The notes under the pieces were generated by a model. The model saw only the letters and a program-made list of their open reading frames with translations. It was not told the origin of the DNA and did no database searches. Made by a program: the position numbers and the translations under genes. Positions 37,520-59,294 of a DNA stretch of 64,000 bases are shown piece after piece (the stretch's first letter is position 1; every line of letters starts with the position of its first letter). This stretch comes from Escherichia coli (GTDB lineage: Bacteria > Pseudomonadota > Gammaproteobacteria > Enterobacterales > Enterobacteriaceae), in the NCBI RefSeq assembly GCF_036507355.1, contig NZ_AP027877.1; one strand, 5' to 3'.

Positions 37520-38287
37520 GTGCCTGGTTTGAAGATTACGCTTTTGCAGCAACCACTGGTGTGGATGGATGGCCCTGCCAACCTGCGTCATTTTGATCGT
37601 CAACTGGAAGGTATTACCGGGCGCGATGTGATCGTTCTACCGGAGATGTTTACCAGCGGCTTTGCCATGGAAGCGGCTGCTTCGTCGCTAGCACAAGATG
37701 ACGTAGTGAACTGGATGACAGCCAAAGCGCAGCAGTGCAATGCGCTGATTGCAGGCAGTGTTGCATTACAAACGGAGTCTGGTTCGGTTAACCGCTTTTT
37801 GCTGGTTGAGCCGGGCGGCACGGTACATTTTTATGATAAGCGTCATCTGTTCCGCATGGCAGATGAGCATCTGCATTATAAAGCGGGCAATGCGCGAGTG
37901 ATTGTGGAATGGCGCGGCTGGCGTATTTTGCCGTTGGTGTGCTACGACTTACGTTTTCCGGTGTGGTCGCGCAATCTCAACGATTATGACCTCGCCATCT
38001 ACGTTGCCAACTGGCCTGCTCCGCGCTCTCTGCACTGGCAGGCATTGCTGACGGCCCGCGCGATTGAGAATCAGGCGTATGTGGCGGGATGCAATCGCGT
38101 CGGCAGCGATGGCAACGGCTGCCATTATCGCGGTGACAGCCGGGTGATTAATCCACAGGGCGAGATTATCGCTACTGCCGACGCGCATCAGGCAACGCGC
38201 ATTGATGCGGAGCTGTCGATGGCGGTGTTAAGGGGATATCGCGATAAGTTTCCGGCATGGCGGGATGCGGATGAGTTTAGGTTGTAG
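37520..38287 (+). CDS. yafV: nitrilase-superfamily omega-amidase YafV (GTG start)
   Basis: [31 protein letters not shown].. inside ORF 37511..38287. Confidence 0.9.
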
Positions 38288-38289
38288 TG

Positions 38290-38530
38290 AGTGGGTGTTG
38301 TGTTTAGGGCTGGGGAGAGTCGGGGAAGACTACGAAAGCCCGCTCTCCTGCGACCACTTTTATCATAGGAGTGTGGAAGTGCTTTTCCATCAATCGCGAT
38401 GACGTCTTTGTCATTTGATGAATGGCAGTCACGCATCCAGTTAATAAAGCATTCGTGAAATTATACTGAACGGATACAAGACATAACTCTAATTATGGTG
38501 CCGTGAACAGGATTACCATTTTCAAAATTA
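38290..38530 (-). pseudogene. H-repeat (ISAs1-family) transposase fragment, yafF-like
   Basis: Minus-strand reading ..[27 protein letters not shown].. matches the mid-region of H-rpt transposases (YhhI-like); ~85% identical to a second copy at 40301..40455. Confidence 0.5.
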
Positions 38531-38560
38531 CGATATTATTTGCAGTAATTATGTTATTAA

Positions 38561-39040
38561 TCATTGTGATATTTCCATCTCTGTGATTAATACCGGATAA
38601 GCATTTAATTGCAGAGTTTGCACGAAATTATCGCAGATAACTGGCAATAACAATAACCCATCAGCCCGCTGCTGTAATACCTCCATTCGTTCTACTGATT
38701 CAACATTAACAACCAAACCAAGGGCATTTAGCGATTTAAGGATCTCCAGATGTTCACTCATCCAGCGCAGAGAAAAAGGATCATCACCAATTATAAAAAC
38801 AGGCCCCCAGCCGGTTAATAACTGGCGTTTCATTACGGAGCCAGGATGAAGTCGAGTACATATTACAGGAAATACCCCCTGTTGCGATGGTTCCGATGAT
38901 GTGGATAATTCAGAAATATTTTGCATTGTTAGTGAAGAATTAACATCCATTAATAATGGTGAAACAACCTCACTTTCCTTGCTAGTAATGGCTGCACTAA
39001 TCTGAAAGGAAAATAACAATATTATTACGTATAAACTCAT
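38561..39040 (-). CDS. Small secreted or membrane protein of unknown function (159 aa from MSLYVIILLFSFQISAAITS)
   Basis: ORF 38561..39073; N-terminal hydrophobic signal-like segment; possibly the counterpart of K-12 ykfM by position (uncertain). Confidence 0.45.
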   Translation of the reverse strand: MSLYVIILLFSFQISAAITSKESEVVSPLLMDVNSSLTMQNISELSTSSEPSQQGVFPVICTRLHPGSVMKRQLLTGWGPVFIIGDDPFSLRWMSEHLEILKSLNALGLVVNVESVERMEVLQQRADGLLLLPVICDNFVQTLQLNAYPVLITEMEISQ

Positions 39041-39139
39041 TTTTAACATAACACATTCAATCCGTTTATTCATGTTATAGAATAATGATGCTATAAATCA
39101 TCATTAATGTTCAATTATTTAATCACACAATTTAAAAAA

Positions 39140-39571
39140 TCATTGACCAATGTGAATTGGCAATGTACCACTCAAGTTAAAATCACTGAATATTTTATCA
39201 ATTTCTCTTGCAGTTTCTATATATTTAACCTCTTTCGTACTTGCATTATAAATAGCCCAAGCCTCGGAATGGGATGTTTCACCAAACCTTACAAAAAAAC
39301 TTGATTTCATATTATTATATAAATTAACATCAGGAAAAGGATCTTCTCCAAAATTAGTAGTATTGAATAATGAAAGTTCGTATCGCTTAGAAAATTCTAT
39401 TGGTAGGATAGCTTCACTGCCATCAATAGCATTCATCCAGAGTTTGTTACCATTATATTCCAACAATAATCTCTGTTTTGCATGTGTCTTATCTCGTTCT
39501 TTAACGACAGCGAATACCTTTTTAACAACTTGCTGTGCGGATGGTCCTATTGTATTACCAAAAGCTGGCAA
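39140..39571 (-). CDS. Hypothetical protein, start uncertain (TTG start in track; out-of-frame ATG with strong SD just upstream)
   Basis: ORF 39140..39571; AT-rich; lies between two H-rpt fragments. Confidence 0.35.
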   Translation of the reverse strand: MPAFGNTIGPSAQQVVKKVFAVVKERDKTHAKQRLLLEYNGNKLWMNAIDGSEAILPIEFSKRYELSLFNTTNFGEDPFPDVNLYNNMKSSFFVRFGETSHSEAWAIYNASTKEVKYIETAREIDKIFSDFNLSGTLPIHIGQ

Positions 39572-39799
39572 CCCGATTTTGCCATAAACACTCTCCTAAA
39601 TGAAATAAATATCCGTTTTATCGGCCTCGACAATATCTACCATTTATCCCTCCAAACAAGACCTGACTCCAGGACAAGAGCATAGTGTGTAGTAAACACT
39701 TCATGCTCTTGCCCTGACCATTGAAATAACAACTTTCGTTTGTTTACTGTACGCTGTCTAAATAGCTGCGTGGAATAAAGTTGCACTTTTTATCATCCC

Positions 39800-40640
39800 T
39801 TGCAGAGCAAGATTACGAAAGCCCGCCCCCGCAAGGACTGACGCGAGGTAGTCTCTGTCCGCAGCTGCTTTTCACATCTTACATCTTGCCCCTGCCATGA
39901 GTATCTTATCTTTCGTTAAAATATTAATAGCGATCTTCCGTATCCCTGAAAATAATTCTGCTGCATTTCCTCTTCTTATTTTGAAGTCATCTTTATTCAT
40001 TACCACGTCCAGATGCCAGTGCAATTTATTCTCCACTTGCCAGTGATTTCGGTTCGCTGTGGCGAACTTCTCTGCGGTTAAATCAGCAGAAATGCTATAA
40101 TATCTGACCGTCATTTCGGGATTTTTCTTTTGTTCTGCTATTATTGAGCGAAATGAGACTGCCATGCATAATTTCTTCAGCCCTTTCCATTCAAACGTAA
40201 AATCAATAAATTCATCAGAGACATGCAAACAATATGAAGACGGATTTTAATGACATAAATTGCTCCCTTGTGACGACTCTTGTCATAAGAGTGCCGGAGC
40301 GTTTTTCCATCAATTGCGATGATGTCTTTATCATCTGAAGAATGACAGTCACGCATCCAGTTAATAAAGCACTCGTAAAATTTTGCAGGACTGATACAGG
40401 ATACAACTCTGGCAATGATATCGTGAACAGGAATACCATTTTCAAAATCACCATATCACTTCAAAAAATCGAGATGTGTTTCCCCAAATCCTCTATATCT
40501 TCCCAGCCTTATGCACCAGAAATAACGGCGCAAATAGTTAACAGATAGAATATCTGGCAATTTATGTTCCACTTTCCAGGCTTGCCTGTAATCGGGGATA
40601 ATAGAAATATGTTCCATCAATTTTTTAAGTTCCATTTTAC
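39800..40640 (-). pseudogene. H-repeat (ISAs1-family) transposase, disrupted by internal deletion and frameshifts
   Basis: N-terminus [26 protein letters not shown].. near 40640, mid part ..[11 protein letters not shown].., C-terminal part 39872..40228 (..[45 protein letters not shown]..). Confidence 0.7.
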
Positions 40641-40892
40641 CCCCCTTAATTATGCAATGAGTATTTGATCATGTATAAGCAATGAAAAACAGCTTTAGGT
40701 AATAAGGAACACCTCAATTATTGAACATAAAATGCGAATTATTTAGTACAAAAAAAGCAGTATTACGTGATTTTTCCCTGGGAGTACAGTGTGAAGTTTC
40801 CGGCATGGCGGGATGCGGATGGGTTTGAACTGGGGTGATTAGGCACTACATGTCTACATTTTCCCGGTCACCACCCCCTCAATCTTATGAAC

Positions 40893-42953
40893 TTAACCTC
40901 GGCTCACCGTTTTCGATTCCATCCAATAAATGACCCGGTTGGATGTGGGCTGATCGCCAACAACTTTGCCATCTGCAGAGATTAGCTTCAGCTCTTTATT
41001 AGCCTCATCACCGAAGTAAATCATACGGTAGCGAAAATAACCGCCCCAGGGTTCACGTCCACCCAGCGGACTTTGCATAAACCAGGCGCGGGAGTCGTGA
41101 ACCTGGTCATCATAGAGGGCCAGTAATTCAGCGCATGGCTGAGTACGCGTTCCCGTTCCCAGTGAATCAATAAAAAATTGTGGATAGAGTCCGTCTCCCA
41201 TAGCCTTAATTTGCTGATATTCTTTTGCTTCATCATCGCCATTAATCAGATACACCGGATATTTAGGAATGACATCCACAAGAATCTGAATGGCTTTCTC
41301 CATGACGCTGCCGTTAATATCGCGCGTCCATCCTTTATAATCGCTCTGAAATTCTCGGGCTGCCTCTCGCAACTGATACTGAGCATTGGTTGGGTCAAGG
41401 ATAGGAATGCCCTGATTACTTTCATCAAGTGTGCCATTCCCTTTCTGCTTGTTCGCCCGCTCTTTTTCAATATTTTCCATTTGTTCTTTACGCGCTTTAG
41501 CCTCTTTATCAAGTCCATCTTTATCCAGCTGTGGCGCCTTAATATAAAAAGGTTGCACAAGAAGGCTGTTATTCGCATAGCGACCGATACGCCAGGCGGT
41601 GATCCAGCCGATCTGATCGCTAATTGCGCTTTCAAGAACCTGGGCAAGTTGATAGGAGTGATAACCTTCCCTCGTATCAATCATTTCTTCTGTACCCTGC
41701 AAGGTGGTGTTCAGCAGCGTTTGTCGCCAGATGTTGAAGCGTTTTGTTAATGAATTAGCAATCGTAAATTCCTTTACACTAGAAGGACTCATAATTCGCA
41801 GAGGCGACACACCTTTTATTAATGGAGTAACAAATTTAGAATAAACAGCAAGTGGTGCTCCTGAATCAAATGCAGCAAGATACATATCATGCAGTGCTAT
41901 CTGAGAAAGAATTTCGCCTGAGTCACCACAGGACTTCCCCTGATCGCGAACGGGATAGCCACCACCGACATCAGAGTGCATCCCCGGATAGATAATTTCC
42001 TCTGCATTTAAAGGATAATTTCCGTCTGGACGACGGATTGAATCCAGCGGAAAGCACAGCCGCTGCTCATGCGCGGCAACGAAGTGGCGGCAGCATTTAA
42101 TCAGGCCGGGAAACTGCCTCTCATCAGGGAGTTGCTGAGTACTATCGGCCCATCCCATATGACCGGCAGCGCCCGGTAAAACATGCGCCGCCCCCACAGA
42201 AGCTACGGTATCCAGCAGCCCCAAAAACTCAATACTGACAGCTAACCCGGCCAGCATCACCTGTTGCTCCTGCGGGCAAGCTAACTGAGTCAACCAGTTA
42301 ACAAAAGTTCGTGCTTCCGCTGCGCCACGGGAAAATCCGTAGATAAACAGCTTTACGTTTAGCAGGCGCGGACTGGCTTGCTCTAACAGTCCCTGTAATT
42401 TTTCCAGGTAGGGGTTAATCACATTGCGACGATTCACTTCACCAGTCATAGGCCAGGGAGCGCGCATAAGAGGAATGTGCTCTTTTGCCACATTATCATC
42501 CAGTCGCTTATGGGAAGGGTCAATGGAATAGCTCAGGGCATCCACGAGGCGTAATAATGCCCAATTAATTCGATCTTCACCACCAGTAGCGAACTCCAGC
42601 CCGCTGTTGCTGTAATCCATTTCACCTATCTTGGGAAATGGTGTGCCTACACCCGGTATATAGTAGTTAAAATATCCCTGTTCTTCTGCGTTCTGATAGG
42701 TCGTATGAAACAGTTTGGCAATATTGGTTGGGTGTCCAGGAGTGTCATTATATTCATTATTATTTGTACCATCAAAAAACAGACTAATATGCAGACTTTG
42801 ATTACACGTAAAGCCAATTCTAAATCCAGCCTGTTTACTACAGTTGGTTTTGTGCTCTTCTGTTTTATTGATTTGTTTTAGGTAGTTCGCGTTTACCTGC
42901 GCTTCAGATAATATTAATCGCCCATCTTCAGGGAACACCGGGGGGCATAACAC
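40893..42953 (-). CDS. Tle1-family phospholipase effector, DUF2235 alpha/beta hydrolase (686 aa)
   Basis: DUF2235 hallmarks: N-terminal ..HISLFFDGTNNN.. and GxSxG nucleophile elbow IYGFSRGAAEARTF; sits downstream of a vgrG stub and a DUF4123-like gene. Confidence 0.75.
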   Translation of the reverse strand: MLCPPVFPEDGRLILSEAQVNANYLKQINKTEEHKTNCSKQAGFRIGFTCNQSLHISLFFDGTNNNEYNDTPGHPTNIAKLFHTTYQNAEEQGYFNYYIPGVGTPFPKIGEMDYSNSGLEFATGGEDRINWALLRLVDALSYSIDPSHKRLDDNVAKEHIPLMRAPWPMTGEVNRRNVINPYLEKLQGLLEQASPRLLNVKLFIYGFSRGAAEARTFVNWLTQLACPQEQQVMLAGLAVSIEFLGLLDTVASVGAAHVLPGAAGHMGWADSTQQLPDERQFPGLIKCCRHFVAAHEQRLCFPLDSIRRPDGNYPLNAEEIIYPGMHSDVGGGYPVRDQGKSCGDSGEILSQIALHDMYLAAFDSGAPLAVYSKFVTPLIKGVSPLRIMSPSSVKEFTIANSLTKRFNIWRQTLLNTTLQGTEEMIDTREGYHSYQLAQVLESAISDQIGWITAWRIGRYANNSLLVQPFYIKAPQLDKDGLDKEAKARKEQMENIEKERANKQKGNGTLDESNQGIPILDPTNAQYQLREAAREFQSDYKGWTRDINGSVMEKAIQILVDVIPKYPVYLINGDDEAKEYQQIKAMGDGLYPQFFIDSLGTGTRTQPCAELLALYDDQVHDSRAWFMQSPLGGREPWGGYFRYRMIYFGDEANKELKLISADGKVVGDQPTSNRVIYWMESKTVSRG

Positions 42954-43298
42954 GGAAAAGCCAGACCACTTATTTTGCTGGACATGTTGCTGGTTCTTTT
43001 ACTTTGAGAGATTTTAATTGATGGGTATTGTTTCTACGACAATAAAGTTTTGACAAAGAAGCAAATAAAATGCATATCTTTCGATTGTCACACATTGGAA
43101 TATCGACAGAGCATTGATGATATTACGCAAAATATATTGCAGCCAAGTGAACTGACATTACGATCGAACACAAATGCAACATGATGGATACTACCATTAC
43201 ATGTCGAGCTTGATTTTCCGTTTATTTCACGATTATCTCTTGATATTAACAGCTACGGACTTTTAAACAGATAAATCTCCCCGTACATCACCACAATA

Positions 43299-44069
43299 TT
43301 ATCCTTCGAAGTCCCGCAAAGCTCCGAAATATTTCGCGTCATTGGCTCTGAAAGCAATATCAAGACAGTGGGCAAAATAGCTTTCCTGACTGAGTTCACT
43401 GACTGCTTTCTCCTTCATCAGGACTTCAGCGTCGCAGATACAGCCCATCAATCCCACCTGTACATCATCCACCCGATTCATCTCCGGGTTGTCAGTAAGC
43501 CTGCGTTCTGGTGAAAAACTTCCTGATTTCCAGTTAATCTCACCATCACGGTCTAACCAGCTCCAGAACAACGCAATATCAGTAAATGTCGCCTGCTGCT
43601 CGTTAGTCAAAACATGTGTGAACAGTAAAGGGAACACCCGATTATCATAGTAACGCAGCAATCCGGTCTGTTCTTCCCACTGAACCTGTGACAATACCTG
43701 AAGATGCCGCCCCAGCAGGTCGAATGTAAGAGGGGATATCAACAAAGTAAGACGCGGCGTATCAGCAAATGACGCCATCAGTTGTGCCAGAAATTTGCGA
43801 TGGCTACTGAGCGCAAAGTACAGGCGTAACACTACAGGGGAATACTCCATCGTCTCAGCTTCAGGCGTTCCTTCAAACAGGGCATACCAGTGAATGGCTG
43901 GCGACAGATGAAGCATATCATTTTGCAAAGGTTGGTCGGTTCCAGCCTGGTCAACAAGCACATCTATGTAATCCAAACCAGCGGCAGAACAGAATGATTC
44001 AGCTTGCTTCAGCCAGATAATATATTTGTCTTGATCGGTAGCGTGTGGCGATACTGTTATCATTGTCAT
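43299..44069 (-). CDS. DUF4123-like T6SS effector adaptor/chaperone (256 aa)
   Basis: Size and position (between vgrG 3' end and effector) typical of DUF4123 adaptors; assignment from context and general sequence character. Confidence 0.5.
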   Translation of the reverse strand: MTMITVSPHATDQDKYIIWLKQAESFCSAAGLDYIDVLVDQAGTDQPLQNDMLHLSPAIHWYALFEGTPEAETMEYSPVVLRLYFALSSHRKFLAQLMASFADTPRLTLLISPLTFDLLGRHLQVLSQVQWEEQTGLLRYYDNRVFPLLFTHVLTNEQQATFTDIALFWSWLDRDGEINWKSGSFSPERRLTDNPEMNRVDDVQVGLMGCICDAEVLMKEKAVSELSQESYFAHCLDIAFRANDAKYFGALRDFEG

Positions 44070-44075
44070 TCTCCC

Positions 44076-44447
44076 TTATCCACGAGGCGCAAAAACGGCG
44101 GCGGCTTCTTGCGCCCTTTTCAGGCACTCCTTACACACCGATTTTTCTGGCGCTTCCTCACCCTCATCGTTGTTATCATTCTGATCGGACGATGCATTAC
44201 TATCATTTTGCTCAGCCGCTAAACTTTTATCATCTGCCAGCGCTTTCAGAACCGCCGGTTGCAGCGTCGGCACCGGCGTTCCCGGACTACCGCCGCTATT
44301 GAGATTGATTTTCGGCCCGACGATGTCCACGCTCCCTGAATGGATGACCACAAACGAGCCGCCCACCTTCAGGCTTATCCGGCTGCTGCTCTCCAGCACC
44401 ACATCGCCCTCCACCTTTAACCACGCCACCGCAGTCAATGGCATCAC
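44076..44447 (-). pseudogene. vgrG: vgrG 3'-terminal stub (123 aa)
   Basis: ..KVEGDVVLESSSRISLKVGGSFVVIHSGSVDIVGPKINLNSGGSPGTPVPTLQPAVL.. aligns to the C-terminus of the vgrG at 47531..49237; shared DNA segment 44366..44402 = 47916..47952. Confidence 0.75.
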
Positions 44448-44652
44448 CGGTTCTGGCGGTAGGTTTATCGTCGATAAAGGCGAAAGAGGTGTTTCCGGCT
44501 CTTAAGAAATATTTACGCACATGCACCAGCATTACAGAAAATAAAACCTGCGATACATTTTAATCAATAAGGTTGCTTTACCAAGCTTCCATCGATATTG
44601 ATGGAAAATTCATTAGACCTAATATGAACAGAATGTTGCTCATCATCTTTAT

Positions 44653-45339
44653 CTAATATTTGATTAACAAAAAAAACGTATTTTTATCAAATTCATAATT
44701 ATCACATCCCTCTCCACTAAATGATATAGCTCTAAAATCATATTCATTACATGAGTATCTTTTCATCAAAATAGAGAGGAATGTTTCATTAATTGATTTT
44801 AATACAAACCATTTTCTCCTAACAAGTTTGTAGTTTAATGTTTTTATATGATAATTATTTAAACTGGGGAGAAATGAATGCATATCATTCAATTTTACAT
44901 CAAAATATATTTTTTTACCTGCCGTAATTTCCACCCATCGGCTCAAATTCAAATCAAGCTCAAAGGGACAAAAGCCTCCTAGATAGTCTAAGCTAATATT
45001 TCCTGATGTAATCAAGAATTCGTCATCACACAAAGCATCAAATACATCTCCATTTCCTTTTTGGAAGTTCTTTGGATAATATATTCTGGGGAGAAAATAC
45101 GATTTAGTACTACTGTTATAAAAAGTTATAGTGGCTAAAATATTTTCAGCATGTGGCTTAACCACCAATTTAACAACAACATCATTTGTTAATTCATTAC
45201 TTATATTTTCCTCTGGCGCTAAATTATGGCTAAGATAAATAATTGGTTTCCCATTGTCACTTCTTCGTTCAAAACCGAATCTGTATTTTTTTACAAAAAG
45301 ATTCTCATTATCTATTGCAATTGCAATAGATAATGGCAA
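44653..45339 (-). CDS. AT-rich hypothetical protein, candidate immunity partner of the upstream HExxH protein; start uncertain
   Basis: ORF 44653..45339 begins at TTG; an ATG with signal-like peptide MKRLAFYNLNYVVLMVFFFVFC lies upstream in another frame across T-homopolymer runs. Confidence 0.35.
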   Translation of the reverse strand: MPLSIAIAIDNENLFVKKYRFGFERRSDNGKPIIYLSHNLAPEENISNELTNDVVVKLVVKPHAENILATITFYNSSTKSYFLPRIYYPKNFQKGNGDVFDALCDDEFLITSGNISLDYLGGFCPFELDLNLSRWVEITAGKKIYFDVKLNDMHSFLPSLNNYHIKTLNYKLVRRKWFVLKSINETFLSILMKRYSCNEYDFRAISFSGEGCDNYEFDKNTFFLLIKY

Positions 45340-45512
45340 AAAACAAAGAAAAAAACCATCAGTACAACATAATTTAGATTATAGAAAGCCAACCTCTTCA
45401 TCTTATTTCCCCGTCAACTCATCAAAACATTTTTCTATCTCTTTTATTTTATCCTCTACTTTTTTTGCTAACATATTCTCATCTTGAGCTTCAATATCTT
45501 CATTATTTAATT

Positions 45513-46205
45513 TTATATAAAATATCTTTCAACATTATATGCATTCTCAAATAACTGATCTTTACGCAATGTAACCAGATCATTAGCCACTGAAACATGT
45601 TTCTCATAGCTAACTTCATCCTTATTACTTGTTGCGAACTTATTAATACCCGTATAATCCTGAGTCCACATACCACCTTTTTGATTGTCACCCCAATACC
45701 AAAATATATGGGACATTTCATGGCAAAGTGTACTTACATGAGAGTCTCTACCTGTAACCGACTGTTTTATACCATGTCTGTATTCAAAATGCGCTCCGAT
45801 ATTTACAATGTAAGGAGGATCAAGATGTGGACTAATAAAAGCAGCAAATTCATTGCAGTTCGTATAATCTTTATAGCTTTCGATCGTCAAACCATTTGCA
45901 ATCGTCATTATTCGTCTGATGCCATCCATTATGAATAGTCTCGCTTGCATTCGTTTCCCAGTATCTTCCCCAACCTTTCTGATTTTTATAATGTCCTCGC
46001 CTTTAAGGCCAAAAACTTTAATAAAATCTCGTTGTTGCTCCCCCTCCCATGACATAATATCATCTGCTCTTTTCAATAAAACCATTTTCTGTGCTTTACA
46101 AGCCTTACTCATCATTATTTTAAATTTATTTGTAATTTTTTGCGGTACTACACATACTTGCGACTCGGGTTGTGAAGTCCCACTAGTATTATTATTCCCT
46201 GCCAT
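45513..46205 (-). CDS. HExxH zinc-metallopeptidase-like protein, candidate T6SS effector (230 aa)
   Basis: ATG at 46205 preceded by GGAGGGG; motif HEMSH followed by ..WTQDYTG.. (aspzincin-like spacing); N-terminal 16 codons of track ORF 45513..46334 come from the IS600-like terminus. Confidence 0.5.
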   Translation of the reverse strand: MAGNNNTSGTSQPESQVCVVPQKITNKFKIMMSKACKAQKMVLLKRADDIMSWEGEQQRDFIKVFGLKGEDIIKIRKVGEDTGKRMQARLFIMDGIRRIMTIANGLTIESYKDYTNCNEFAAFISPHLDPPYIVNIGAHFEYRHGIKQSVTGRDSHVSTLCHEMSHIFWYWGDNQKGGMWTQDYTGINKFATSNKDEVSYEKHVSVANDLVTLRKDQLFENAYNVERYFI

Positions 46206-46349
46206 AATGCCCCTCCGGCTCAATATAAAAAGCATCCGAAAATAACAATTGGACTTTAATTTCCTGTGCTGTATCTGTATAAAAGTGAGGTAGCCTGAGT
46301 TTAACGGACACTCCTTCCTGAAATAGAATGGCATCAGAAGGAGCTAATA

Positions 46350-46652
46350 ATGAGCAGAAAAACCCAACGTTACTCTAAAGAGTTCAAAGCCGAAGCTGTC
46401 AGAACGGTTCTTGAAAATCAACTTTCGATCAGTGAAGGCGCTTCCCGATTATCTCTTCCTGAAGGCACTTTAGGACAATGGGTTACCGCCGCCAGAAAAG
46501 GGCTCGGTACTCCTGGTTCCCGCACGGTGGCTGAACTGGAATCTGAAATTCTGCAACTGCGTAAGGCGTTAAATGAAGCTCGCCTTGAGCGAGATATATT
46601 AAAAAAAGCAACAGCGTATTTTGCACAGGAGTCGCTGAAAAATACGCGTTAA
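46350..46652 (+). CDS. IS3-family transposase OrfA (IS600-like)
   Basis: MSRKTQRYSKEFKAEAVRTVLENQLSISEGASRLSLPEGTLGQWV..; HTH plus leucine zipper. Confidence 0.85.
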   Translation: MSRKTQRYSKEFKAEAVRTVLENQLSISEGASRLSLPEGTLGQWVTAARKGLGTPGSRTVAELESEILQLRKALNEARLERDILKKATAYFAQESLKNTR

Positions 46653-46687
46653 TCGAACAATGGCGACAACAATTTCCCATTGAAGCG

Positions 46688-47506
46688 ATGTGTCAGGTAT
46701 TTGGTGTATCCAGGAGCGGTTATTACAACTGGGTACAGCATGAACCCTCAGACAGAAAACAAAGTGATGAGCGGCTAAAACTGGAGATTAAGGTGGCACA
46801 TATCCGCACTCGCGAAACATATGGAACCCGGCGGCTCCAGACGGAGCTGGCAGAGAATGGCATCATCGTTGGTCGTGACCGACTGGCACGTCTTCGTAAG
46901 GAGCTAAGGCTACGCTGTAAGCAGAAACGCAAGTTCAGAGCGACTACGAACTCGAACCACAATCTGCCAGTTGCGCCAAATCTGCTGAACCAGACGTTCG
47001 CTCCTACAGCACCAAATCAGGTCTGGGTGGCGGACCTGACGTATGTTGCCACACAGGAGGGATGGTTGTACCTCGCTGGCATCAAAGATGTTTATACGTG
47101 CGAAATTGTCGGCTACGCCATGGGAGAGCGCATGACAAAAGAGCTGACAGGTAAAGCCCTGTTTATGGCGCTCAGGAGCCAGCGCCCACCTGCCGGGCTA
47201 ATCCACCACTCTGATCGAGGTTCACAGTACTGCGCATACGATTACCGGGTCATACAGGAGCAGTTTGGTCTGAAAACATCAATGTCGCGTAAAGGTAACT
47301 GTTACGACAACGCTCCGATGGAAAGCTTCTGGGGAACGCTGAAAAATGAGAGCCTGAGCCACTATCGTTTTAATAACCGGGATGAAGCCATCTCAGTAAT
47401 ACGGGAATACATTGAGATTTTCTACAATCGTCAGCGTCGTCACTCTCGTCTGGGGAATATCTCCCCGGCAGCCTTCAGGGAAAAATATCATCAGATGGCT
47501 GCTTAA
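46688..47506 (+). CDS. IS3-family transposase OrfB, DDE integrase domain (IS600-like)
   Basis: ..WVADLTYVATQEGWLYLAGIKDVYTCEIVGYAM..HHSDRGSQYCAYDY.. Confidence 0.85.
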   Translation: MCQVFGVSRSGYYNWVQHEPSDRKQSDERLKLEIKVAHIRTRETYGTRRLQTELAENGIIVGRDRLARLRKELRLRCKQKRKFRATTNSNHNLPVAPNLLNQTFAPTAPNQVWVADLTYVATQEGWLYLAGIKDVYTCEIVGYAMGERMTKELTGKALFMALRSQRPPAGLIHHSDRGSQYCAYDYRVIQEQFGLKTSMSRKGNCYDNAPMESFWGTLKNESLSHYRFNNRDEAISVIREYIEIFYNRQRRHSRLGNISPAAFREKYHQMAA

Positions 47507-47530
47507 AAAAAGAATAAATGGTAGTGTCCG

Positions 47531-49237
47531 CTATTGCCAGTACACCTCAAATATTTCTGTATATCCCTCTCTGTCTGTTTCACCACGCGTCTGTGTGCCA
47601 TCCTCAAAAAAGGCAATATACTGCGTCTCTGAATACGGTATCCCGTCATCGTCCGTAAAATGGAACTGGAGGGTATATTTTTCAGGATCATCTTCATCGT
47701 CACCGCCATCACCTCCTCCGTCACTCCCTGCGGGATTGCCACTATCCTCTCCGGAGTCATCACTGCCATCATCACTGCTCTCATCCTCCGGAGCCTCCAG
47801 CACCGCCGGCTGCATCGTCCCCACCGGTGTCCCCGCACTGCCCCCACCGTTCAGGTTTATCTTCGGCCCGGCAATATCCACTCCGCCCGGCTGAATGACG
47901 ATAAACGAGCCACCCACCTTCAGGCTTATCCGGCTGCTGCTCTCCAGCACGATATCCCCGTCCACTTTTATCCCCAGCGCGCCACTCACCTTCTCCGCCA
48001 GGTCCCCCTTCACCACCAGGCTGTGTTTCCCCTCCACCAGACTGATATGGTTCCCCGTCGTCTTATGCTCCTGCTTCCCTTCCACCGTCACTTTACGGTC
48101 GTTTCTGACGTACAGACCGTCATCGTGACTCACGCTCACCGTCCGGTCATTCGTCACCTTCAGAGTCTGGTCATTACGTACCGTGATACGCCGGTCGTTC
48201 GCCACCGTGATACTCTGGTCGTGGCCCCCCTCTTTTTTTGTACCGACCTGAACCGTCTGACCCTTCACCACCGTTATCTTCTGGTCGTTACCGATGGTTT
48301 CCGTATGGTCATGTTTTACATCCGTTGTCCGGTCGTTGAGCACCTCCGTATCCATGTTCTTCTGCGCATGGATATACACCTGCTCATTACTGGTGGCGTC
48401 TTCAAACCGCAGCTCGTTAAATCCGCTTCCTTTATAGGTTTTTGACCGTATCGTCATCTGCGTCTTCGTTCCCGGCAGGTCGCCCGGGGAGCGGTTGTCC
48501 TCATGGTACGTCCGCCCCATGATTATCGGCTGGTCCGGGTCTCCGTTCAGAAAATCAACAATCACCTCCTGGCCCACCCGCGGTATCGCCAGATTACCGA
48601 ACCCCGGCCCCGCCCACGCCTGCGATACCCGCACCCAGCATGAACTCGCCTCCGTCATCCCGTGATAACGGTCCCAGTGGAACTTCACCCGTACCCGGCC
48701 ATGTTCATCGCAGAAGATTTCCTCTCCCGCAGGCCCGGTGACAATGGCACTCTGCGGCCCGTCCACCTTCGGTTTGCTTTGCAGCCGTGGACGCCACGTC
48801 CGGTCCGCCGGTATCACCTCTAACTGATTTCCCAGCGTGGTTCCTCTCCCTTGGCTGCCGTGCAGCGCCTGCGGCTGGCTTCCTGACAGTATGCTCTGTA
48901 CCACCTGCCATTCACGGTTCAGCATCTTCTGCGGATGCCCCGTCAGCGTAAACCGCGTTCCCGGCCACAGCCTCGGCGAATTACTCTGCCCTGTGGCCTT
49001 TTCCGCATCACTGCGCAGGCTCTCCATCTGGTACAGCGTGAAATCCTTGCCGTGCTGCTCATCCTTGAACCTTCCCGGATAATCAAATATTTCATACTGC
49101 GCCAGCTGTCCGTTCAGGTTCTCACCCTGCTGCTCATACATCCCCGGCCAGTCCGGCACCTTAAACGTGTAATCCTGGCTCTGCACCGACGACGGGCGGA
49201 CATGCGCCTCATACGCTACCGCCCGGGTTTCCGGCAT
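47531..49237 (-). pseudogene. vgrG: vgrG lacking ~270 N-terminal residues; 3' end runs into the IS600-like element
   Basis: Starts within the gp27-like region (..VRPSSVQSQDYTFKVPDWPG..), contains gp5 OB-fold segment (..VDGPQSAIVTGPAGEEIFCDEHGRVRVKFHWDR..) and Asp/Glu/Gly-rich C-terminal extension; last 6 codons are IS sequence. Confidence 0.8.
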
Positions 49238-49338: not shown

Positions 49339-49857
49339 TTATGCTTCCAGCGGTGCACGCCAGTCATCGGCACCAGAAGTACCGGATTTGATGTGCTCCC
49401 ACTCAACCTTACGGTATGCCAGTGATACTGCGAGCAATTGCGTAAACTCACGCTGTGCAGGGTCCTGGCAGTGCGGCATGTGCAGGTTCATGTCCACAAT
49501 CGTCGCGTCAGTAAGACGTGTGGTGAAGTAGTGCTCCTGCTTGCCTTCAACTGAAGTACGCCACCAGTGCAGCTCCACTTTCGGCAGCATTTCACCGGAG
49601 GCCAGCGCGTTGTACAGCAGCGGAACGGCTTTGTTCAGCGCCACGGTGAAAATGAACGGTTTGTGCGCGCGCTGCCCGGAAGGTTGACCAGACTGTGGAT
49701 CGGTTGGAACAGTAACGTTATGCAGAAACTCCTGCACCAGCATTTCATCTTCGTGTCCCTGCACGTAGATATTGCCGACAGAATCTGCGGTGAAAGCACC
49801 GGCAGTGATGTTCCCCTGGGTCTGACCTGTAATTGAAATGTAACATGGGGTTGGCAT
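49339..49857 (-). CDS. hcp: T6SS tube protein Hcp (172 aa)
   Basis: MPTPCYISITGQTQGNITAGAFTADSVGNIYVQGHEDEMLV..HKPFIFTVALNKAVPLLYNAL.. Confidence 0.9.
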   Translation of the reverse strand: MPTPCYISITGQTQGNITAGAFTADSVGNIYVQGHEDEMLVQEFLHNVTVPTDPQSGQPSGQRAHKPFIFTVALNKAVPLLYNALASGEMLPKVELHWWRTSVEGKQEHYFTTRLTDATIVDMNLHMPHCQDPAQREFTQLLAVSLAYRKVEWEHIKSGTSGADDWRAPLEA

Positions 49858-50559: not shown

Positions 50560-50715
50560 ATGAGCAAAATGAACAACAATGGCGGCAGTGTCGCGCCGAA
50601 AGAAAGAATCAGCGTTCGGTATACACCAAAAGTTGATGGGGTGGCTGCTGATATCGAATTGCCGCTGAATTTATTGATCACCGGCAATCTGAAAGGGAAA
50701 CCAGATAACACGCCG
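50560..50715 (+). pseudogene. tssB: tssB (sheath small subunit) 5' stub, ~52 codons, cut by IS3-family element
   Basis: MSKMNNNGGSVAPKERISVRYTPKVDGVAADIELPLNLLITGNLKGKPDNTP then IS terminus; TssB N-terminal pattern; too short for the ORF track. Confidence 0.55.
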
Positions 50716-50772
50716 TGAATCGCCACGGGTTTAACAGACACCTCAGAGTCATTTAAGATGGCTTAAAGAGAG

Positions 50773-51057
50773 GTGCCCATGAGCGGTAAGCGTTATCCCG
50801 AAGAGTTTAAAATTGAAGCAGTCAAACAGGTTGTTGATCGCGGTTATTCTGTTGCCAGCGTTGCAACACGTCTCGATATCACCACCCACAGCCTTTACGC
50901 CTGGATAAAGAAGTACGGTCCGGATTCTTCCGCTAATAAAGAACAGTCAGATGCTCAGGCCGAGATCCGCCGTCTCCAGAAAGAGCTGAAGCGGGTTACC
51001 GACGAACGGGACATATTAAAAAAAGCCGCGGCGTACTTCGCAAAGCTGTCCGACTGA
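50773..51057 (+). CDS. IS3-family transposase OrfA
   Basis: MPMSGKRYPEEFKIEAVKQVVDRGYSVASVATRLDITTHSLYAWIKKY.. Confidence 0.85.
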   Translation: MPMSGKRYPEEFKIEAVKQVVDRGYSVASVATRLDITTHSLYAWIKKYGPDSSANKEQSDAQAEIRRLQKELKRVTDERDILKKAAAYFAKLSD

Positions 51058-51113
51058 GGTACGCCTTTATCCGTGACAACACCTGTTGCTGGCCTGTTCG
51101 CCTGCTCTGTCGG

Positions 51114-51926
51114 GTGCTGGATGTTCATCCCAGTGGTTTTTACGCCTGGCTTCAGCAGCCGCATTCACAACGCCATCAGGCAGACCTGAGGCTGACAGGG
51201 CAGATTAAACAGTTCTGGCTGGAATCGGGATGCGTCTATGGTTATCGCAAAATCCATCTGGATCTGCGGGACAGCGGGCAACAGTGCGGAGTGAACAGAG
51301 TCTGGCGACTGATGAAACGTGTCGGGATAAAGGCTCAGGTCGGATACCGGAGCCCGCGGGCACGTAAAGGCGAGGCCAGTATCGTGTCGCCCAACAGGCT
51401 CCAGCGACAGTTCAATCCGGATGCTCCGGATAAGCGTTGGGTAACGGACATAACCTACATCAGGACCCACGAAGGCTGGCTGTATCTTGCCGTGGTTGTT
51501 GATCTGTTCTCACGCAAAATTATCGGCTGGTCCATGCAATCCCGGATGACAAAGGACATTGTCCTGAACGCACTGCTGATGGCTGTATGGCGCCGTAATC
51601 CCCAAAAACAGGTGCTGGTTCATTCGGATCAGGGCAGTCAGTACACAAGCCATGAGTGGCAGTCGTTCCTGAAATCACACGGCCTGGATGGCAGCATGAG
51701 CCGTCGCGGTAACTGCCATGATAATGCGGTTGCAGAAAGCTTTTTCCAGTTGTTGAAACGCGAACGGATAAAGAAAAAGATCTACGGAACGCGGGAAGAA
51801 GCCCGCAGCGATATTTTTGATTACATCGAAATGTTTTATAACAGTAAGCGTCGGCATGGTTCCAGCGATCAGATGTCACCGACAGAATATGAAAACCAGT
51901 ATTATCAACGGCTCGGAAGTGTCTAG
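51114..51926 (+). CDS. IS3-family transposase OrfB (DDE integrase domain)
   Basis: ..WVTDITYIRTHEGWLYLAVVVDLFSRKIIGWSM..VHSDQGSQYTSHEW.. Confidence 0.85.
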   Translation: MLDVHPSGFYAWLQQPHSQRHQADLRLTGQIKQFWLESGCVYGYRKIHLDLRDSGQQCGVNRVWRLMKRVGIKAQVGYRSPRARKGEASIVSPNRLQRQFNPDAPDKRWVTDITYIRTHEGWLYLAVVVDLFSRKIIGWSMQSRMTKDIVLNALLMAVWRRNPQKQVLVHSDQGSQYTSHEWQSFLKSHGLDGSMSRRGNCHDNAVAESFFQLLKRERIKKKIYGTREEARSDIFDYIEMFYNSKRRHGSSDQMSPTEYENQYYQRLGSV

Positions 51927-52198
51927 ATTATCCGTGGCGATTCAGTTGTCAAGCAGATAGAAGCCATCTAGGTCAGGGGGAATGACTAGGAATTACTCCC
52001 CAAGGGTAGCGTACGTCTACACACATCAAATTACCTCCCGGACAGGGACATAGTAGAAATATTGTGTATTGCAATTATGGATACTGTCATCGTCTAGGTA
52101 GTTCGCCAGCTTTATAGTGTTTTACTGAATTTGGCCACCTGAGCAGAGGTGATATGGGAGAGTGATTTTCATACGCTCTCGTATGGTTTCCGGCCTGA

Positions 52199-52426
52199 AT
52201 GCAGTGTTCATCACGCGATCCGCACGGTGAAATTACAGCTCACAGACTGTGGGGAAACCCGGGGCGCTGGGTGATTGAAGACGACCTGTCCAGTTACTTC
52301 GACACCGTACACCATCGACTGCTGATGAAAGCCGTACGCCGCAGGATCAGTGACGCACGTTTTATGGCCCTCCTGTGGAAAACCATCAAGGCGGGCACAT
52401 CGAGGTCGGTCTCTTTCGGGCGGTAA
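52199..52426 (+). pseudogene. Reverse transcriptase fragment (ykfC-like)
   Basis: ..VIEDDLSSYFDTVHHRLLMKAVRRRISDARFMALLWKTIKAG.. resembles RT finger/palm motifs; no continuation. Confidence 0.45.
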
Positions 52427-52429
52427 GTG

Positions 52430-52684
52430 ACGCCGCGCCAGCTGACGTTGCCACGAATATTCGCCAATACGCTGCCAGACTTCGGTATGAAAGCGCAGAA
52501 TCAATGACCGGTAATCGGCCATGCTTTCGCGGTACGGCAGCGTCAACGTAAAGCAGAACACCACGAGTCGTGGGTAATGGTCAACGGCCTGTTGCAGAAA
52601 GGCTCGTGTATTTGTCGTGTCAGTCGAATTGCCGGAGACGATGGAGGGAGAATAAGGATTCATAACGGCGCTCTCAATGAACAC
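52430..52684 (-). pseudogene. Inovirus Gp2-family protein, N-terminal fragment
   Basis: ..AFLQQAVDHYPRLVVFCFTLTLPYRE.. resembles the N-terminus of Gp2-family proteins of CP4-type islands; remainder of the track ORF is antisense to the RT fragment. Confidence 0.4.
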
Positions 52685-52888
52685 TGGTGTGATGGACAGG
52701 AGTGTGATGTTGCAGGTGTGCTGCTCATCATCGATCCCATATCATTACGTTCGCTCACTAAGACGGAGTGCCTTTCGTCATTTAACCTGTCACAATCCAA
52801 ATAATTTCAGACAGATATTATCTCCGTGAATCCCCCGCCTCCTTAACCGGAGCGCGGGGATTTTTCTTTTTCACGTTGAGAACTCTGT

Positions 52889-53771: not shown

Positions 53772-54032
53772 AATGAGTAAAAGGTCATCAGGACTGTAGT
53801 GAATGACTCTGTTTATTCACCGCCTGGTAGATGATTATTTCCAGGCAGACATAACCTGTCCTGACCAGCAAAAGATACCACCAGTCATAAGCGCGTCACC
53901 ACTGCCGACGTTGCATCCACACAGTCTTCTTGCACCAGGCGTTTCGCTACGTATGACGGACACAACCTGTCAGTCCCATCCTTTACAGTAATACCTTCTT
54001 TATTAATCAATTACCCAACACGGAGATAATAC

Positions 54033-55368: not shown

Positions 55369-55403
55369 CCCGCTGAAAACAACCATAACAGGGAGTTTTT
55401 AAC

Positions 55404-56305: not shown

Positions 56306-56367
56306 ACTCCCCGCCTCAGGGAGAAGCTTCCCGTATTCATTTAACACATTAAAAATAAAGGAAAAGA

Positions 56368-56910: not shown

Positions 56911-56969
56911 CCGGCATCAGCGCTGTCCGGCCCGGATGAGCAGGCAAGTTAAATCAAGGAACAATATCA

Positions 56970-57800: not shown

Positions 57801-58067
57801 TGCCACCACTGCCTGATAACGCCCACCCGGCCGCCATTAATCCTGCCCCCTGGAGAACAACCCCGGCAGCCGCCCCATCTCCGATGACGACCTGTGCGCC
57901 TGTGCTCACACCTTCTTTATCGTCCCGGTGAACTCAGTTTCTGCCGGTTAAGTCTCGCTGACGGCCACTGGCCCTCACACTGTGATGAAGACGGCTATGC
58001 GCAGTCCTGTCCGTCACTCCGATTGAACCGGTATCCCCAACACAATGAATGAAAGAGGAAAAACAAC

Positions 58068-58538: not shown

Positions 58539-58549
58539 GGTCAGCCGCT

Positions 58550-59029: not shown

Positions 59030-59049
59030 CACAACAGGAGAATAACCGA

Positions 59050-59271: not shown

Positions 59272-59294
59272 CACACGTTTAAGGAAGGCTAAAA

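What the first reader, a model, noticed from the sequence alone, without database searches (positions are those of the whole stretch)
40893..44447. Orphan effector cassette: vgrG 3' stub, DUF4123-like adaptor, Tle1 (DUF2235) lipase, with no adjacent immunity gene
A 123-codon vgrG C-terminal stub is followed directly by a DUF4123-like gene and a 686-aa DUF2235 protein with FFDGTNNN and GFSRGA motifs, the classic Tle1 arrangement. Where a Tli immunity gene would be expected downstream there is instead a decayed H-repeat transposase. Either the immunity gene was deleted, which is tolerable only because the T6SS is dead, or immunity is encoded elsewhere.
Basis: partly seen in the sequence, partly recalled or inferred. 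Interest (0 to 1): 0.6.

Follow-up and report, generated by a model that had tools for sequence, protein, structure and literature searches.

The report
Decayed Tle1 toxin cassette, immunity deleted
This is the decaying remnant of a known E. coli type VI secretion toxin module (VgrG–Tla1–Tli–Tle1). Its immunity genes were cleanly deleted from their normal place just upstream of the toxin gene, in a strain that has also lost the secretion machine, so it is ordinary gene decay, not a toxin puzzle.

Summary
On the minus strand lie a 114-codon vgrG tail stub, a Tla1/DUF4123 adaptor and a 686-aa Tle1 ORF (PF09994, which I recall as the former DUF2235, plus PF22137). Tle1 matches P. aeruginosa Tle1 at E=1e-116.

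In this subfamily the DUF3304/Tli1a lipoprotein genes sit between tla1 and tle1. E. coli relatives carry 1–3 tandem copies there; the window carries none. One 28-nt stop/start motif (42969–42996), which flanks every tli unit in relatives, joins the leader directly to tle1. That is a clean deletion between direct repeats.

All 69 of 5,426 complete E. coli genomes that carry a full or near-full tle1 keep at least one tli. Two independent assemblies show the window's zero-copy junction, so it is real.

Tle1 itself is compromised. A C7 tract is C6 here, which cuts the ORF off from its native ATG.

The surrounding island is wrecked:
- tssB is cut and tssC–tssM are absent.
- vgrG is truncated at both ends.
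- An IS3-family element is inserted.
- The neighbouring M35 effector and its partner are frameshifted.

The ISAs1 remnant downstream is ancestral and irrelevant.

Verdict: a known system in ordinary decay. Interest is low.

The parts
44076..44447 (-). vgrG 3' stub. Homology to the VgrG C-terminal tail covers 44079-44420 (114 codons). It carries the tail that docks Tla1/Tle1 but has no spike body.
   Evidence: tblastn gives 94.7% identity to ECO20 VgrG residues 630-743 and 98.2% to the annotated partial VgrG of 23CRST031. No VgrG core model hits it. In P. aeruginosa the last ~20 residues of the VgrG tail recruit Tla1 and Tle1 (PMC13133936).
43299..44069 (-). tla1, the DUF4123 adaptor/chaperone for Tle1. 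It is an intact ORF; PGAP-style start at 44063, 254 aa.
   Evidence: NF053803 Tla1 equivalog, 221.5 bits against a cutoff of 200. PF13503, E=3.5e-15. 98% identical over 254 aa to Tla1 of ECO20 and 23CRST031.
42997..43298 (-). Leader that precedes the first tli gene in relatives. It contains a 41-codon ORF (42970-43095) ending in KEPATCPAK, which is a degenerate remnant of an older tli 3' end.
   Evidence: Identical to the leader of 23CRST031 in alignment A1. ORF listed. Weak Tli similarity: tblastn E=0.07 and HMM 9.9 bits, with the same weak hit in the 23CRST031 leader.
42969..42996 (-). Deletion scar: a single copy of the 28-nt stop/start junction motif GAACCAGCAACATGTCCAGCAAAATAAG. Its left flank is leader-type and its right flank is tle1-type. 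This is where 1-3 tli units of 527-539 bp sit in relatives.
   Evidence: Motif map of the window, L001, L002, L003, L004 and L006. Alignment A1. blastn against 23CRST031 shows the unit missing.
42914..42985 (-). Native tle1 start (ATG 42983-42985), now a 23-codon dead-end ORF because of the C6 tract at 42940-42945 (C7 in the majority allele).
   Evidence: with C7, ATG ORFs of 697 aa in ECO20 and PapRG-04-4; with C6, a 23-aa ORF in the window, L003, L004 and 23CRST031; 55 of 69 genomes are identical to the C7 80-mer, at least 8 show a 79-nt span and 1 an 81-nt span. ORF listed.
40893..42953 (-). tle1 body: the 686-codon ORF from an internal GTG. It encodes a Tle1-family phospholipase with the catalytic motifs kept (S208 in GFSRGA, D248, H326).
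   Evidence: PF09994 and PF22137. 4O5P at E=1e-116 with the motifs aligned. Motif positions, and only 2 amino-acid differences from the closest allele (PapRG-04-4).
39872..40635 (-). Decayed ISAs1 (H-repeat) transposase remnant downstream of tle1. It is ancestral to the locus and is not a replacement for an immunity gene.
   Evidence: NF033564 hits in fragments. The same frameshifted ISAs1 pseudogene is annotated downstream of tle1 in ECO20, 23CRST031 and PapRG-04-4, all of which keep tli.
47531..49237 (-). Context: the main vgrG of the island. It lacks about 206 N-terminal residues (a 739-bp deletion) and its last 30 codons are cut off by an IS3-family insertion (46285-47548).
   Evidence: TIGR03361 matches only from model position 206. 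tblastn aligns ECO20 VgrG residues 207-689. blastn against 23CRST031 gives the breakpoints. IS3 transposase models hit the insertion.
50560..50716 (+). Context: the tssB 5' fragment (about 157 nt), where homology to the T6SS core ends. tssC through tssM and yafT are absent up to aspV (61863-61939).
   Evidence: blastn of the ECO20 core region (L005) and of 23CRST031 against the window. tRNA-Asp located. The replacement DNA is an IS3-family element plus a CP4-like island.

Best explanation
This is a non-functional relic of a vgrG-tla1-tli(n)-tle1 effector module of the E. coli T6SS island between yafV and aspV.

How the intact module works (inferred from P. aeruginosa and K. pneumoniae work):
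- Tla1 and the last residues of the VgrG tail load Tle1 onto the spike.
- Tle1 is a phospholipase that kills from the periplasm.
- DUF3304 outer-membrane lipoproteins (Tli), encoded in a tandem array just upstream of tle1, protect the producer and its kin.

What happened in this lineage:
1. An incoming vgrG-M35-partner module displaced the cassette from its vgrG and left only the vgrG tail stub (shown).
2. The tli array shrank to zero by recombination or replication slippage between the 28-nt motif that ends every tli gene and contains the ATG of the next gene. This left one chimeric motif at 42969-42996 (the scar is shown; the mechanism is inferred).
3. A C7-to-C6 slip at codons 13-15 of tle1 cut the ORF off from its native ATG and Shine-Dalgarno sequence (shown; the effect on translation is inferred).
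4. The T6SS core was lost, and vgrG, the M35 gene and its partner were damaged (shown).

Why losing immunity is tolerated (inferred):
- Tle1 has no signal peptide by my reading of its N-terminus (no predictor was run), and it is harmless in the cytoplasm.
- No machine is left in this island to deliver it into sister cells.
- Tle1 is probably poorly translated anyway.

The likely cost is sensitivity to Tle1-armed E. coli competitors.
For: Gene identities.

Immunity position in relatives:
- ECO20: tla1, then 3 tli units (one of them frameshifted), then tle1.
- 23CRST031 and PapRG-04-4: one tli between tla1 and tle1.
- These proteins hit NF053804 (Tli1a family) at 199-211 bits against a cutoff of 110.
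- P. aeruginosa gene order and Tli1a-Tle1 binding: PMC13133936.
- K. pneumoniae has four tandem tli1 genes upstream of tle1, and they protect: PMC5649205.

Deletion scar.

The allele is not an artefact. GCA_905398585.1 is 100% identical to the window over 11,467 bp, and a Logan assembly has one mismatch over 3,663 bp; both show the same junction.

No Tli in the window.

E. coli survey:
- tli DNA occurs in 69 of 5,426 genomes, at 1-3 places per genome.
- tle1 DNA occurs in 70 genomes, one of them holding only a 25% fragment.
- No genome holds the zero-copy junction as a single piece.

C-tract.

Decay of the rest of the island.

Cytoplasmic Tle1 is non-toxic and periplasm-targeted Tle1 is toxic: PMC13133936. 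Tle1 is active without its immunity protein: PMC11470151.
Against: - Only 64 kb of the genome is visible, so a second T6SS, a vgrG with a matching tail or an orphan tli elsewhere cannot be excluded.
- PGAP annotates the C6 allele as an intact 686-aa CDS from the GTG, so some Tle1 may still be made.
- The catalytic motifs are intact, and the protein differs from its closest allele at only 2 residues. There is therefore no sequence sign of long neutral decay in the tle1 body itself.
- The order of events (core loss before tli loss) is inferred, not shown.
- Some C6/C8 calls in other genomes could be homopolymer sequencing errors. The window's own C6 is seen in three assemblies.
Confidence: 0.85

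Rival explanations
1. Immunity is encoded elsewhere in the genome: an orphan tli copy outside the window protects the cell, and the cassette is still a usable toxin module.
For: It cannot be excluded from a 64-kb window. Orphan immunity genes are common in T6SS biology in general (my own knowledge).
Against: In 5,426 complete E. coli genomes, tli-like DNA occurs only in the 69 genomes that also carry a full or near-full tle1. There are at most 3 places per genome, which is the size of the ECO20 array. I did not check that every place is local. Nothing Tli-like lies in the window. The delivery parts are broken in any case.
Confidence: 0.06
2. Tle1 is still produced from the GTG start and is delivered by another T6SS or VgrG encoded elsewhere. 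The loss of tli is then survived through some other protection or through tight repression.
For: The tle1 and tla1 ORFs are long and intact, with the catalytic motifs kept. PGAP accepts the GTG-start CDS in relatives.
Against: There is no Shine-Dalgarno-like sequence before the GTG. The native ATG frame stops after 23 codons. The docking tail exists only on a spike-less stub. All 69 E. coli genomes with a full or near-full tle1 keep tli, which argues that an armed Tle1 without Tli is not viable.
Confidence: 0.05
3. Programmed variation. The 28-nt stop/start motif and the C-tract are functional switches that vary the immunity copy number and turn the toxin on and off. On this reading the window shows one reversible state, not decay.
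For: The array size is 0, 1, 2 or 3 across strains. C6, C7 and C8 alleles appear in several tle1 backgrounds, including the near-identical pair MFDS1019527 (C7) and MFDS1022581 (C6).
Against: A zero-copy array cannot re-expand, because no template is left. A C7 tract is short for classical phase variation. The window carries at least five further irreversible lesions in the same island. Some homopolymer calls in other assemblies may be sequencing errors.
Confidence: 0.04
4. The missing immunity gene is an assembly artefact, caused by collapse of a tandem repeat.
For: Tandem arrays of ~530-bp units can collapse in short-read assemblies.
Against: Collapse would leave one unit, not zero. Three independent assemblies share the same chimeric junction.
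Confidence: 0.01

Closest known systems
P. aeruginosa H2-T6SS vgrG4a island: vgrG4a-tla1-tli1b-tli1a-tle1 (PA3294-PA3290; PMC13133936; Tle1 structure PDB 4O5P)
   Same: The gene order is the same: VgrG tail, DUF4123 adaptor, slot for DUF3304 immunity genes, Tle1. Tle1 matches at E=1e-116 with the catalytic motifs aligned. Tla1 passes the NCBIfam equivalog cutoff. Relatives' Tli proteins pass the Tli1a family cutoff.
   Different: The window has no tli at all, only a spike-less vgrG stub and a frameshifted tle1 start. The E. coli Tle1 is shorter (686-697 aa against 884), so it lacks part of the C-terminal membrane-anchoring region.
Intact E. coli locus of the same island (for example strains ECO20 and NC101): hcp-vgrG-tla1-tli x3-tle1 next to tssB-tssM
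   Same: It sits at the same chromosomal site, between yafV and aspV. DNA identity is 97-98%, and the same ISAs1 remnants and ICE-protein genes lie downstream.
   Different: ECO20 has a full vgrG, three tli units, the C7 tle1 allele (697 aa) and a complete T6SS core. The window has none of these.
Displaced-cassette E. coli alleles (23CRST031, PapRG-04-4): vgrG-M35-partner-[vgrG stub]-tla1-tli-tle1
   Same: They share the M35 module insertion and the vgrG stub. They are 99.1-99.5% identical to the window across the cassette.
   Different: They keep one tli unit. In 23CRST031 the M35 gene and its partner are intact and tssB and tssC are present. PapRG-04-4 has the C7 allele of tle1.
K. pneumoniae HS11286 Tle1KP with four tandem tli1KP genes (PMC5649205)
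   Same: It is a DUF2235 Tle1 with a tandem array of near-identical immunity genes upstream of the toxin gene.
   Different: There the array is present and has been shown experimentally to protect. Here it has been deleted.
   Same: It is a phospholipase of the same broad DUF2235/Tle1 superfamily.
   Different: The sequence match is weak (E=5.8e-7 over about 130 residues). From my recollection of Flaugnatti et al. 2016, EAEC Tle1 binds VgrG directly without a DUF4123 adaptor, and I believe its tli1 gene lies after tle1. It is therefore the wrong template for where to look for immunity.

Membership tests
Tle1 family T6SS phospholipase effector | Tle1-like catalytic alpha/beta-hydrolase domain (PF09994, the former DUF2235 by my recollection) | tested here: met
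   Two stretches hit PF09994 (E=1.4e-13 and 1.7e-08), together covering model positions 4-285.
Tle1 family T6SS phospholipase effector | Tle1-like C-terminal domain (PF22137) and overall homology to a solved Tle1 | tested here: met
   PF22137 at E=5.8e-56. PDB 4O5P at E=1e-116 over residues 5-666.
Tle1 family T6SS phospholipase effector | GxSxG nucleophile plus the Asp and His of the Ser-Asp-His triad | tested here: met
   GFSRGA (S208), DTVASVG (D248) and HSDVGGGY (H326) align with identical motifs in 4O5P. That these Asp and His residues are the triad members is inferred.
Tle1 family T6SS phospholipase effector | Intact gene reading from its native start codon | tested here: not met
   The C6 tract, against C7 in 55 of 69 genomes, puts the native ATG out of frame. 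The ATG ORF is 23 codons long, and the 686-aa ORF starts at a GTG with no Shine-Dalgarno-like sequence.
Tle1 family T6SS phospholipase effector | Phospholipase activity and toxicity in the periplasm | not testable with these tools
   This needs expression of a periplasm-targeted construct.
Tla1 (DUF4123 adaptor of Tle1) | Passes the NCBIfam equivalog NF053803 and contains a DUF4123 domain | tested here: met
   221.5 bits against a cutoff of 200. PF13503 at E=3.5e-15.
Tla1 (DUF4123 adaptor of Tle1) | Encoded directly after a vgrG whose C-terminal tail it binds | tested here: inconclusive
   The gene follows the tail-encoding stub by 6-12 nt, but the stub lacks the spike body. Binding cannot be tested here.
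Complete vgrG-tla1-tli-tle1 effector/immunity module | At least one DUF3304/Tli1a lipoprotein gene between tla1 and tle1 | tested here: not met
   The gap is 345 bp and holds only a 28-nt junction motif and a degenerate 41-codon remnant. tblastn and HMM searches of the whole window are negative. Relatives have 1-3 copies there.
Complete vgrG-tla1-tli-tle1 effector/immunity module | Full-length VgrG (gp27/gp5 spike) carrying the docking tail | tested here: not met
   Only the last 114 codons remain. The neighbouring vgrG has a different tail, lacks about 206 N-terminal residues and is interrupted by an IS element.
Complete vgrG-tla1-tli-tle1 effector/immunity module | Associated T6SS core genes (tssB through tssM) | tested here: not met
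   Within the window's island, tssB ends after about 157 nt and nothing from tssC to tssM is present up to aspV. The rest of the genome was not visible.
EAEC-type Tle1-Tli1 pair | Close homology to EAEC Tle1, no adaptor, and an immunity gene after the toxin gene | tested here: not met
   The match to 6SJL is only E=5.8e-7. An adaptor is present. In relatives the immunity slot is upstream of tle1.

The most novel reading that the evidence does not exclude
The tli-tle1 array may have built-in variability. The 28-nt motif holds the stop of one gene, the Shine-Dalgarno-like sequence and the ATG of the next, and it lets the immunity array expand, contract and rejoin exactly to the toxin start. A C7 tract 13 codons into tle1 acts as a recurrent on/off slip site for the toxin while leaving immunity expression untouched. 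C6, C7 and C8 alleles were all seen in E. coli lineages. The window would then be the end state: toxin off, immunity lost.
Probability: 0.08. Interest if true: 0.45.

Novelty: already known. Interest (0 to 1): 0.18.

Why it matters
It matters little beyond annotation.

- The apparent paradox of a toxin without an antitoxin disappears once three facts are known: the correct immunity position, the dead delivery system and the frameshifted start of tle1.
- For this Tle1 subfamily, immunity genes should be sought between the adaptor gene and the toxin gene, not after the toxin gene.
- The long GTG-start tle1 ORF that pipelines call intact is probably a start-frameshifted allele.
- The case adds to known T6SS loss in E. 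coli lineages (PMC10711316). It is slightly unusual in that the immunity array went before the toxin ORF. That predicts the strain is sensitive to Tle1-armed relatives.

Tried and rejected
1. Immunity-dependent activation of the toxin, as in E. cloacae Tle/Tli, as a reason why loss of tli would disarm Tle1. Rejected: that mechanism belongs to the Tle6 group, which pairs with ankyrin-repeat immunity proteins, and Tle1 is intrinsically active without Tli (PMC11470151).
2. Downstream genes as substitute immunity. The candidates were the 170-aa protein with a hydrophobic, signal-like N-terminus (by eye; an ICE protein of the PFL_4695 family, TIGR03765) and the 143-aa hypothetical protein. Rejected: both are also present downstream of loci that keep tli, and neither is DUF3304-like.
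3. Small ORFs in the tla1-tle1 gap. Only the degenerate 41-codon tli-tail remnant is there, and relatives have it too.
4. Promoter and terminator scan of 40600-46400. Counts were not above the shuffled expectation (18 against 14.4 +/- 4.5), so nothing is claimed about transcription.
5. Tandem Repeats Finder on the ECO20 array found nothing, because the unit (~530 bp) exceeds its 500-bp period limit. A motif map replaced it.
6. Synonymous versus non-synonymous comparison of tle1. There are too few differences (2 and 2 against the closest allele) to say anything about selection.
7. Identifying the source organism. The exact allele appears only in GCA_905398585.1 and in a Logan assembly, and neither record names the organism. 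No complete E. coli RefSeq genome is identical. The self-comparison of the window shows no repeated IS copies.
8. I did not run the costly genome contigs or metagenome scans. The survey of 5,426 E. coli genomes already answered the question.


Full report
**What is there.** The window is an E. coli-type chromosome. Its left part runs dpaA, yafJ, lpcA, fadE, ivy, yafV; tRNA-Asp (aspV) lies at 61863-61939, followed by dnaQ and rnhA. Between yafV and aspV, where other E. coli carry a T6SS island, the minus strand holds the following:
- hcp, 49339-49857
- a vgrG, 47531-49237
- an M35-like gene and its partner
- a 123-codon ORF, 44076-44447
- a 256-aa ORF, 43299-44069
- a 345-bp gap
- a 686-aa ORF, 40893-42953
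- ISAs1 transposase fragments

**Checking the observation.**
- The 123-codon ORF matches the last 114 residues of a full E. coli VgrG (94.7% to ECO20, 98.2% to the annotated partial VgrG of 23CRST031). It hits no VgrG core model.
- The 256-aa protein is DUF4123 (PF13503, E=3.5e-15). It passes the NCBIfam equivalog 'toxin Tle1 chaperone Tla1' (221.5 bits against a cutoff of 200).
- The 686-aa protein carries PF09994 (the Tle1-like catalytic domain, which I recall as the former DUF2235) and PF22137. It aligns with P. aeruginosa Tle1 (PDB 4O5P) at E=1e-116.
- The motifs are in place: FFDGTNNN (59), GFSRGA (206), DTVASVG (248) and HSDVGGGY (326).
- The downstream ORFs are fragments of an ISAs1 (H-repeat) transposase.

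**Where the immunity gene belongs.** That model is a poor match, because EAEC Tle1 (6SJL) matches only at E=5.8e-7. The close comparators all put immunity before tle1.
- E. coli ECO20 has vgrG, tla1, three DUF3304/Tli1a genes (one frameshifted), then tle1.
- Strains 23CRST031 and PapRG-04-4 have one such gene between tla1 and tle1.
- These proteins pass the NCBIfam Tli1a family model (199-211 bits against a cutoff of 110). They have a lipoprotein-type N-terminus, read by eye (…LFAVSGC).
- P. aeruginosa has the same order, vgrG4a-tla1-tli1b-tli1a-tle1. There Tli1a is an outer-membrane lipoprotein that binds Tle1 (PMC13133936).
- K. pneumoniae HS11286 has four tandem tli1 genes upstream of tle1, and they protect (PMC5649205).
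- The ISAs1 remnant after tle1 is present in all of these E. coli loci, so it displaced nothing.

**The deletion scar.** In relatives, each tli unit (527-539 bp) ends with the 28-nt motif GAACCAGCAACATGTCCAGCAAAATAAG.
- The motif holds the stop codon of that gene (…CPAK*) and, in another frame, the ATG of the next gene, whether that is another tli or tle1.
- A copy also precedes the first tli, at the end of a conserved leader. The leader is itself a degenerate tli tail: a 41-codon ORF ending in KEPATCPAK.
- The window has exactly one copy, at 42969-42996. Leader-type sequence lies on its left and tle1-type sequence on its right.
- The leader is identical to that of 23CRST031, and the two sequences differ only by the absence of one unit.

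This is what recombination or replication slippage between the direct repeats would leave. The mechanism is inferred.

**Is the zero-copy allele real and rare?** The junction is not an assembly artefact. A contig of GCA_905398585.1 is 100% identical to the window over 11,467 bp, and a Logan assembly has one mismatch over 3,663 bp; both show the same junction. Nothing Tli-like lies anywhere in the 64-kb window. tblastn finds only the 11-codon tail. An HMM built from four Tli proteins scores at best 9.9 bits, against 388 bits for the control locus.

The survey of 5,426 complete E. coli genomes gave these counts:

| Feature | Genomes |
|---|---|
| tli-like DNA (1-3 places each, median 3) | 69 |
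| tle1 DNA (one genome holds only a 25% fragment) | 70 |
| Zero-copy junction as a single piece | 0 |

So every surveyed E. coli genome with a full or near-full tle1 keeps at least one tli. Nine of the eleven genomes whose cassette was displaced by the M35 module have a single copy, while the directly vgrG-linked loci seen in the listing mostly have three. This fits a progressive contraction from three copies to one to none.

**The toxin gene is itself compromised.** In ECO20 and PapRG-04-4, tle1 starts at the ATG inside the motif (MSSKISGLAFPCYAPPVFPE…, 697 aa). That start is preceded by AAGGA and followed by a C7 tract.
- The window, the two matching assemblies and 23CRST031 have C6 (window 42940-42945).
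- The ATG frame then stops after 23 codons. The long ORF can start only at GTG 42953, which has no Shine-Dalgarno-like sequence before it.
- C7 is the majority allele: 55 of 69 genomes are identical to a C7 80-mer. At least 8 show a 79-nt span and one an 81-nt span.
- P. aeruginosa Tle1 also has about 11 residues before the first aligned residue, which favours the ATG start.

I read the window's tle1 as a start-frameshifted allele with reduced translation. The effect on translation is inferred, and PGAP annotates such alleles as intact. The body of the gene is otherwise nearly unchanged. It differs from the PapRG-04-4 allele at two residues: L54, and P629, which is S in all three relatives compared.

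**State of the rest of the island.** Compared with ECO20 and 23CRST031:
- tssB is cut after about 157 nt at 50716.
- Everything from tssC to tssM, together with yafT, is absent. An IS3-family element and a CP4-like island (GTPase, DUF4942, DUF932, RadC) fill the space up to aspV.
- The main vgrG lacks about 206 N-terminal residues through a 739-bp deletion.
- A 1,264-bp IS3-family element (46285-47548, with a 3-bp overlap consistent with a target duplication) cuts off the last 30 codons of that vgrG.
- The M35 gene changes frame near 45519-45528.
- The M35 partner has a T8-to-T7 frameshift in its N-terminal hydrophobic segment.

The stub arose when a vgrG-M35-partner module recombined into the original vgrG. 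A ~173-193-bp segment is present both in the stub and in the new vgrG, at about 78-80% identity. In P. aeruginosa the last ~20 residues of the VgrG tail dock Tla1 and Tle1. Here that tail exists only on the stub, which has no spike.

**How it works, or rather does not.** The intact module is a VgrG-loaded, Tla1-chaperoned periplasm-acting phospholipase, countered by DUF3304 lipoproteins. This follows from homology and from the cited experiments. In the window the module cannot be loaded or fired from this island, and its toxin is probably poorly translated. Tle1 has no signal peptide by my reading of its N-terminus (no predictor was run). Cytoplasmic Tle1 is non-toxic, whereas periplasm-targeted Tle1 kills (PMC13133936). 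Once neither the cell nor its kin can inject Tle1, immunity is dispensable, and a repeat-flanked array is easily lost. The expected cost is sensitivity to Tle1-armed relatives such as ECO20- or NC101-type strains. The order of events is inferred. PapRG-04-4 shows no T6SS core genes in the 9 kb upstream of its cassette, yet it keeps tli and a C7 tle1. This is compatible with core loss coming first.

**Rivals.**
- An orphan tli elsewhere cannot be excluded from 64 kb. It is unlikely, because tli-like DNA is found only in genomes that also carry tle1, at no more than three places each.
- Continued use through another T6SS is unlikely, given the spike-less tail, the frameshifted start and the universal tle1-tli linkage.
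- Immunity-dependent activation does not apply to Tle1.
- An assembly artefact is excluded.
- A programmed-variation reading of the motif and the C-tract is the most novel option left. The many irreversible lesions argue against it for this locus.

**Verdict.** The system is already known and is named by current annotation pipelines (Tle1-like effector, Tla1, Tli1a family). This copy is an ordinary decay product with a neat, explainable deletion, and its interest is low.

Noticed in passing
window 44656-46205 (- strand): The neighbouring effector pair is also broken. The M35-like metallopeptidase gene (true start 46205, HEMSH motif, weak PF14521 hit at E=0.0023) switches frame near 45519-45528. 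Its 249-aa partner, which has a hydrophobic N-terminus, has a T8-to-T7 frameshift around 45355-45362. Both genes are intact in 23CRST031.
   Followed up: partly
window 46285-47548: A 1,264-bp IS3-family element (OrfA 46350-46652, OrfB 46688-47506; IS600-like by my recollection and by the annotation of a relative) is inserted 30 codons before the stop of vgrG. A 3-bp overlap of the flanks is consistent with a target-site duplication. The ORF finder's 273-aa 'M35' ORF begins inside this element.
   Followed up: partly
window 49213 and 50716-61863: A 739-bp deletion removes the 5' end of vgrG. tssB is truncated at 50716. The whole T6SS core and yafT are replaced by an IS3-family transposase gene (51114-51926) and a CP4-like island (GTPase, DUF4942, DUF932, WYL, RadC) that abuts tRNA-Asp (61863-61939). 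The island is 99.7% identical to islands in other E. coli strains.
   Followed up: partly
tle1 C-tract, window 42940-42945, and the same site in 69 E. coli genomes: The homopolymer length varies (C6, C7, C8) across several tle1 backgrounds. This includes the near-identical pair MFDS1019527 (C7) and MFDS1022581 (C6). It is either a frameshift hotspot at the start of the toxin gene or homopolymer sequencing error in some assemblies.
   Followed up: partly
window 38188-40635: Two ISAs1 transposase remnants bracket a PFL_4695-family ICE protein gene (38561-39073; hydrophobic, signal-like N-terminus by eye) and a hypothetical gene (39140-39571). This odd block is conserved downstream of tle1 in all E. 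coli loci examined.
   Followed up: no
L001 (ECO20) about 12600-12725, just after the tla1 stop; absent from the window: ECO20 has a ~125-bp insertion here that looks to me like an ERIC/IRU-type repeat. I recognised it from memory and did not test it.
   Followed up: no
window Tle1 residue 629 (about 41067-41069): The window lineage has Pro where ECO20, 23CRST031 and PapRG-04-4 all have Ser, inside the conserved WFMQS(P/S)LGGREP segment of the C-terminal domain. The effect is unknown.
   Followed up: no
other E. coli genomes: tle1 decays in other ways elsewhere. It has an IS903B insertion in EC2641, a 70% truncation in STEC299 and is reduced to a 25% fragment in UID2309220013.
   Followed up: no
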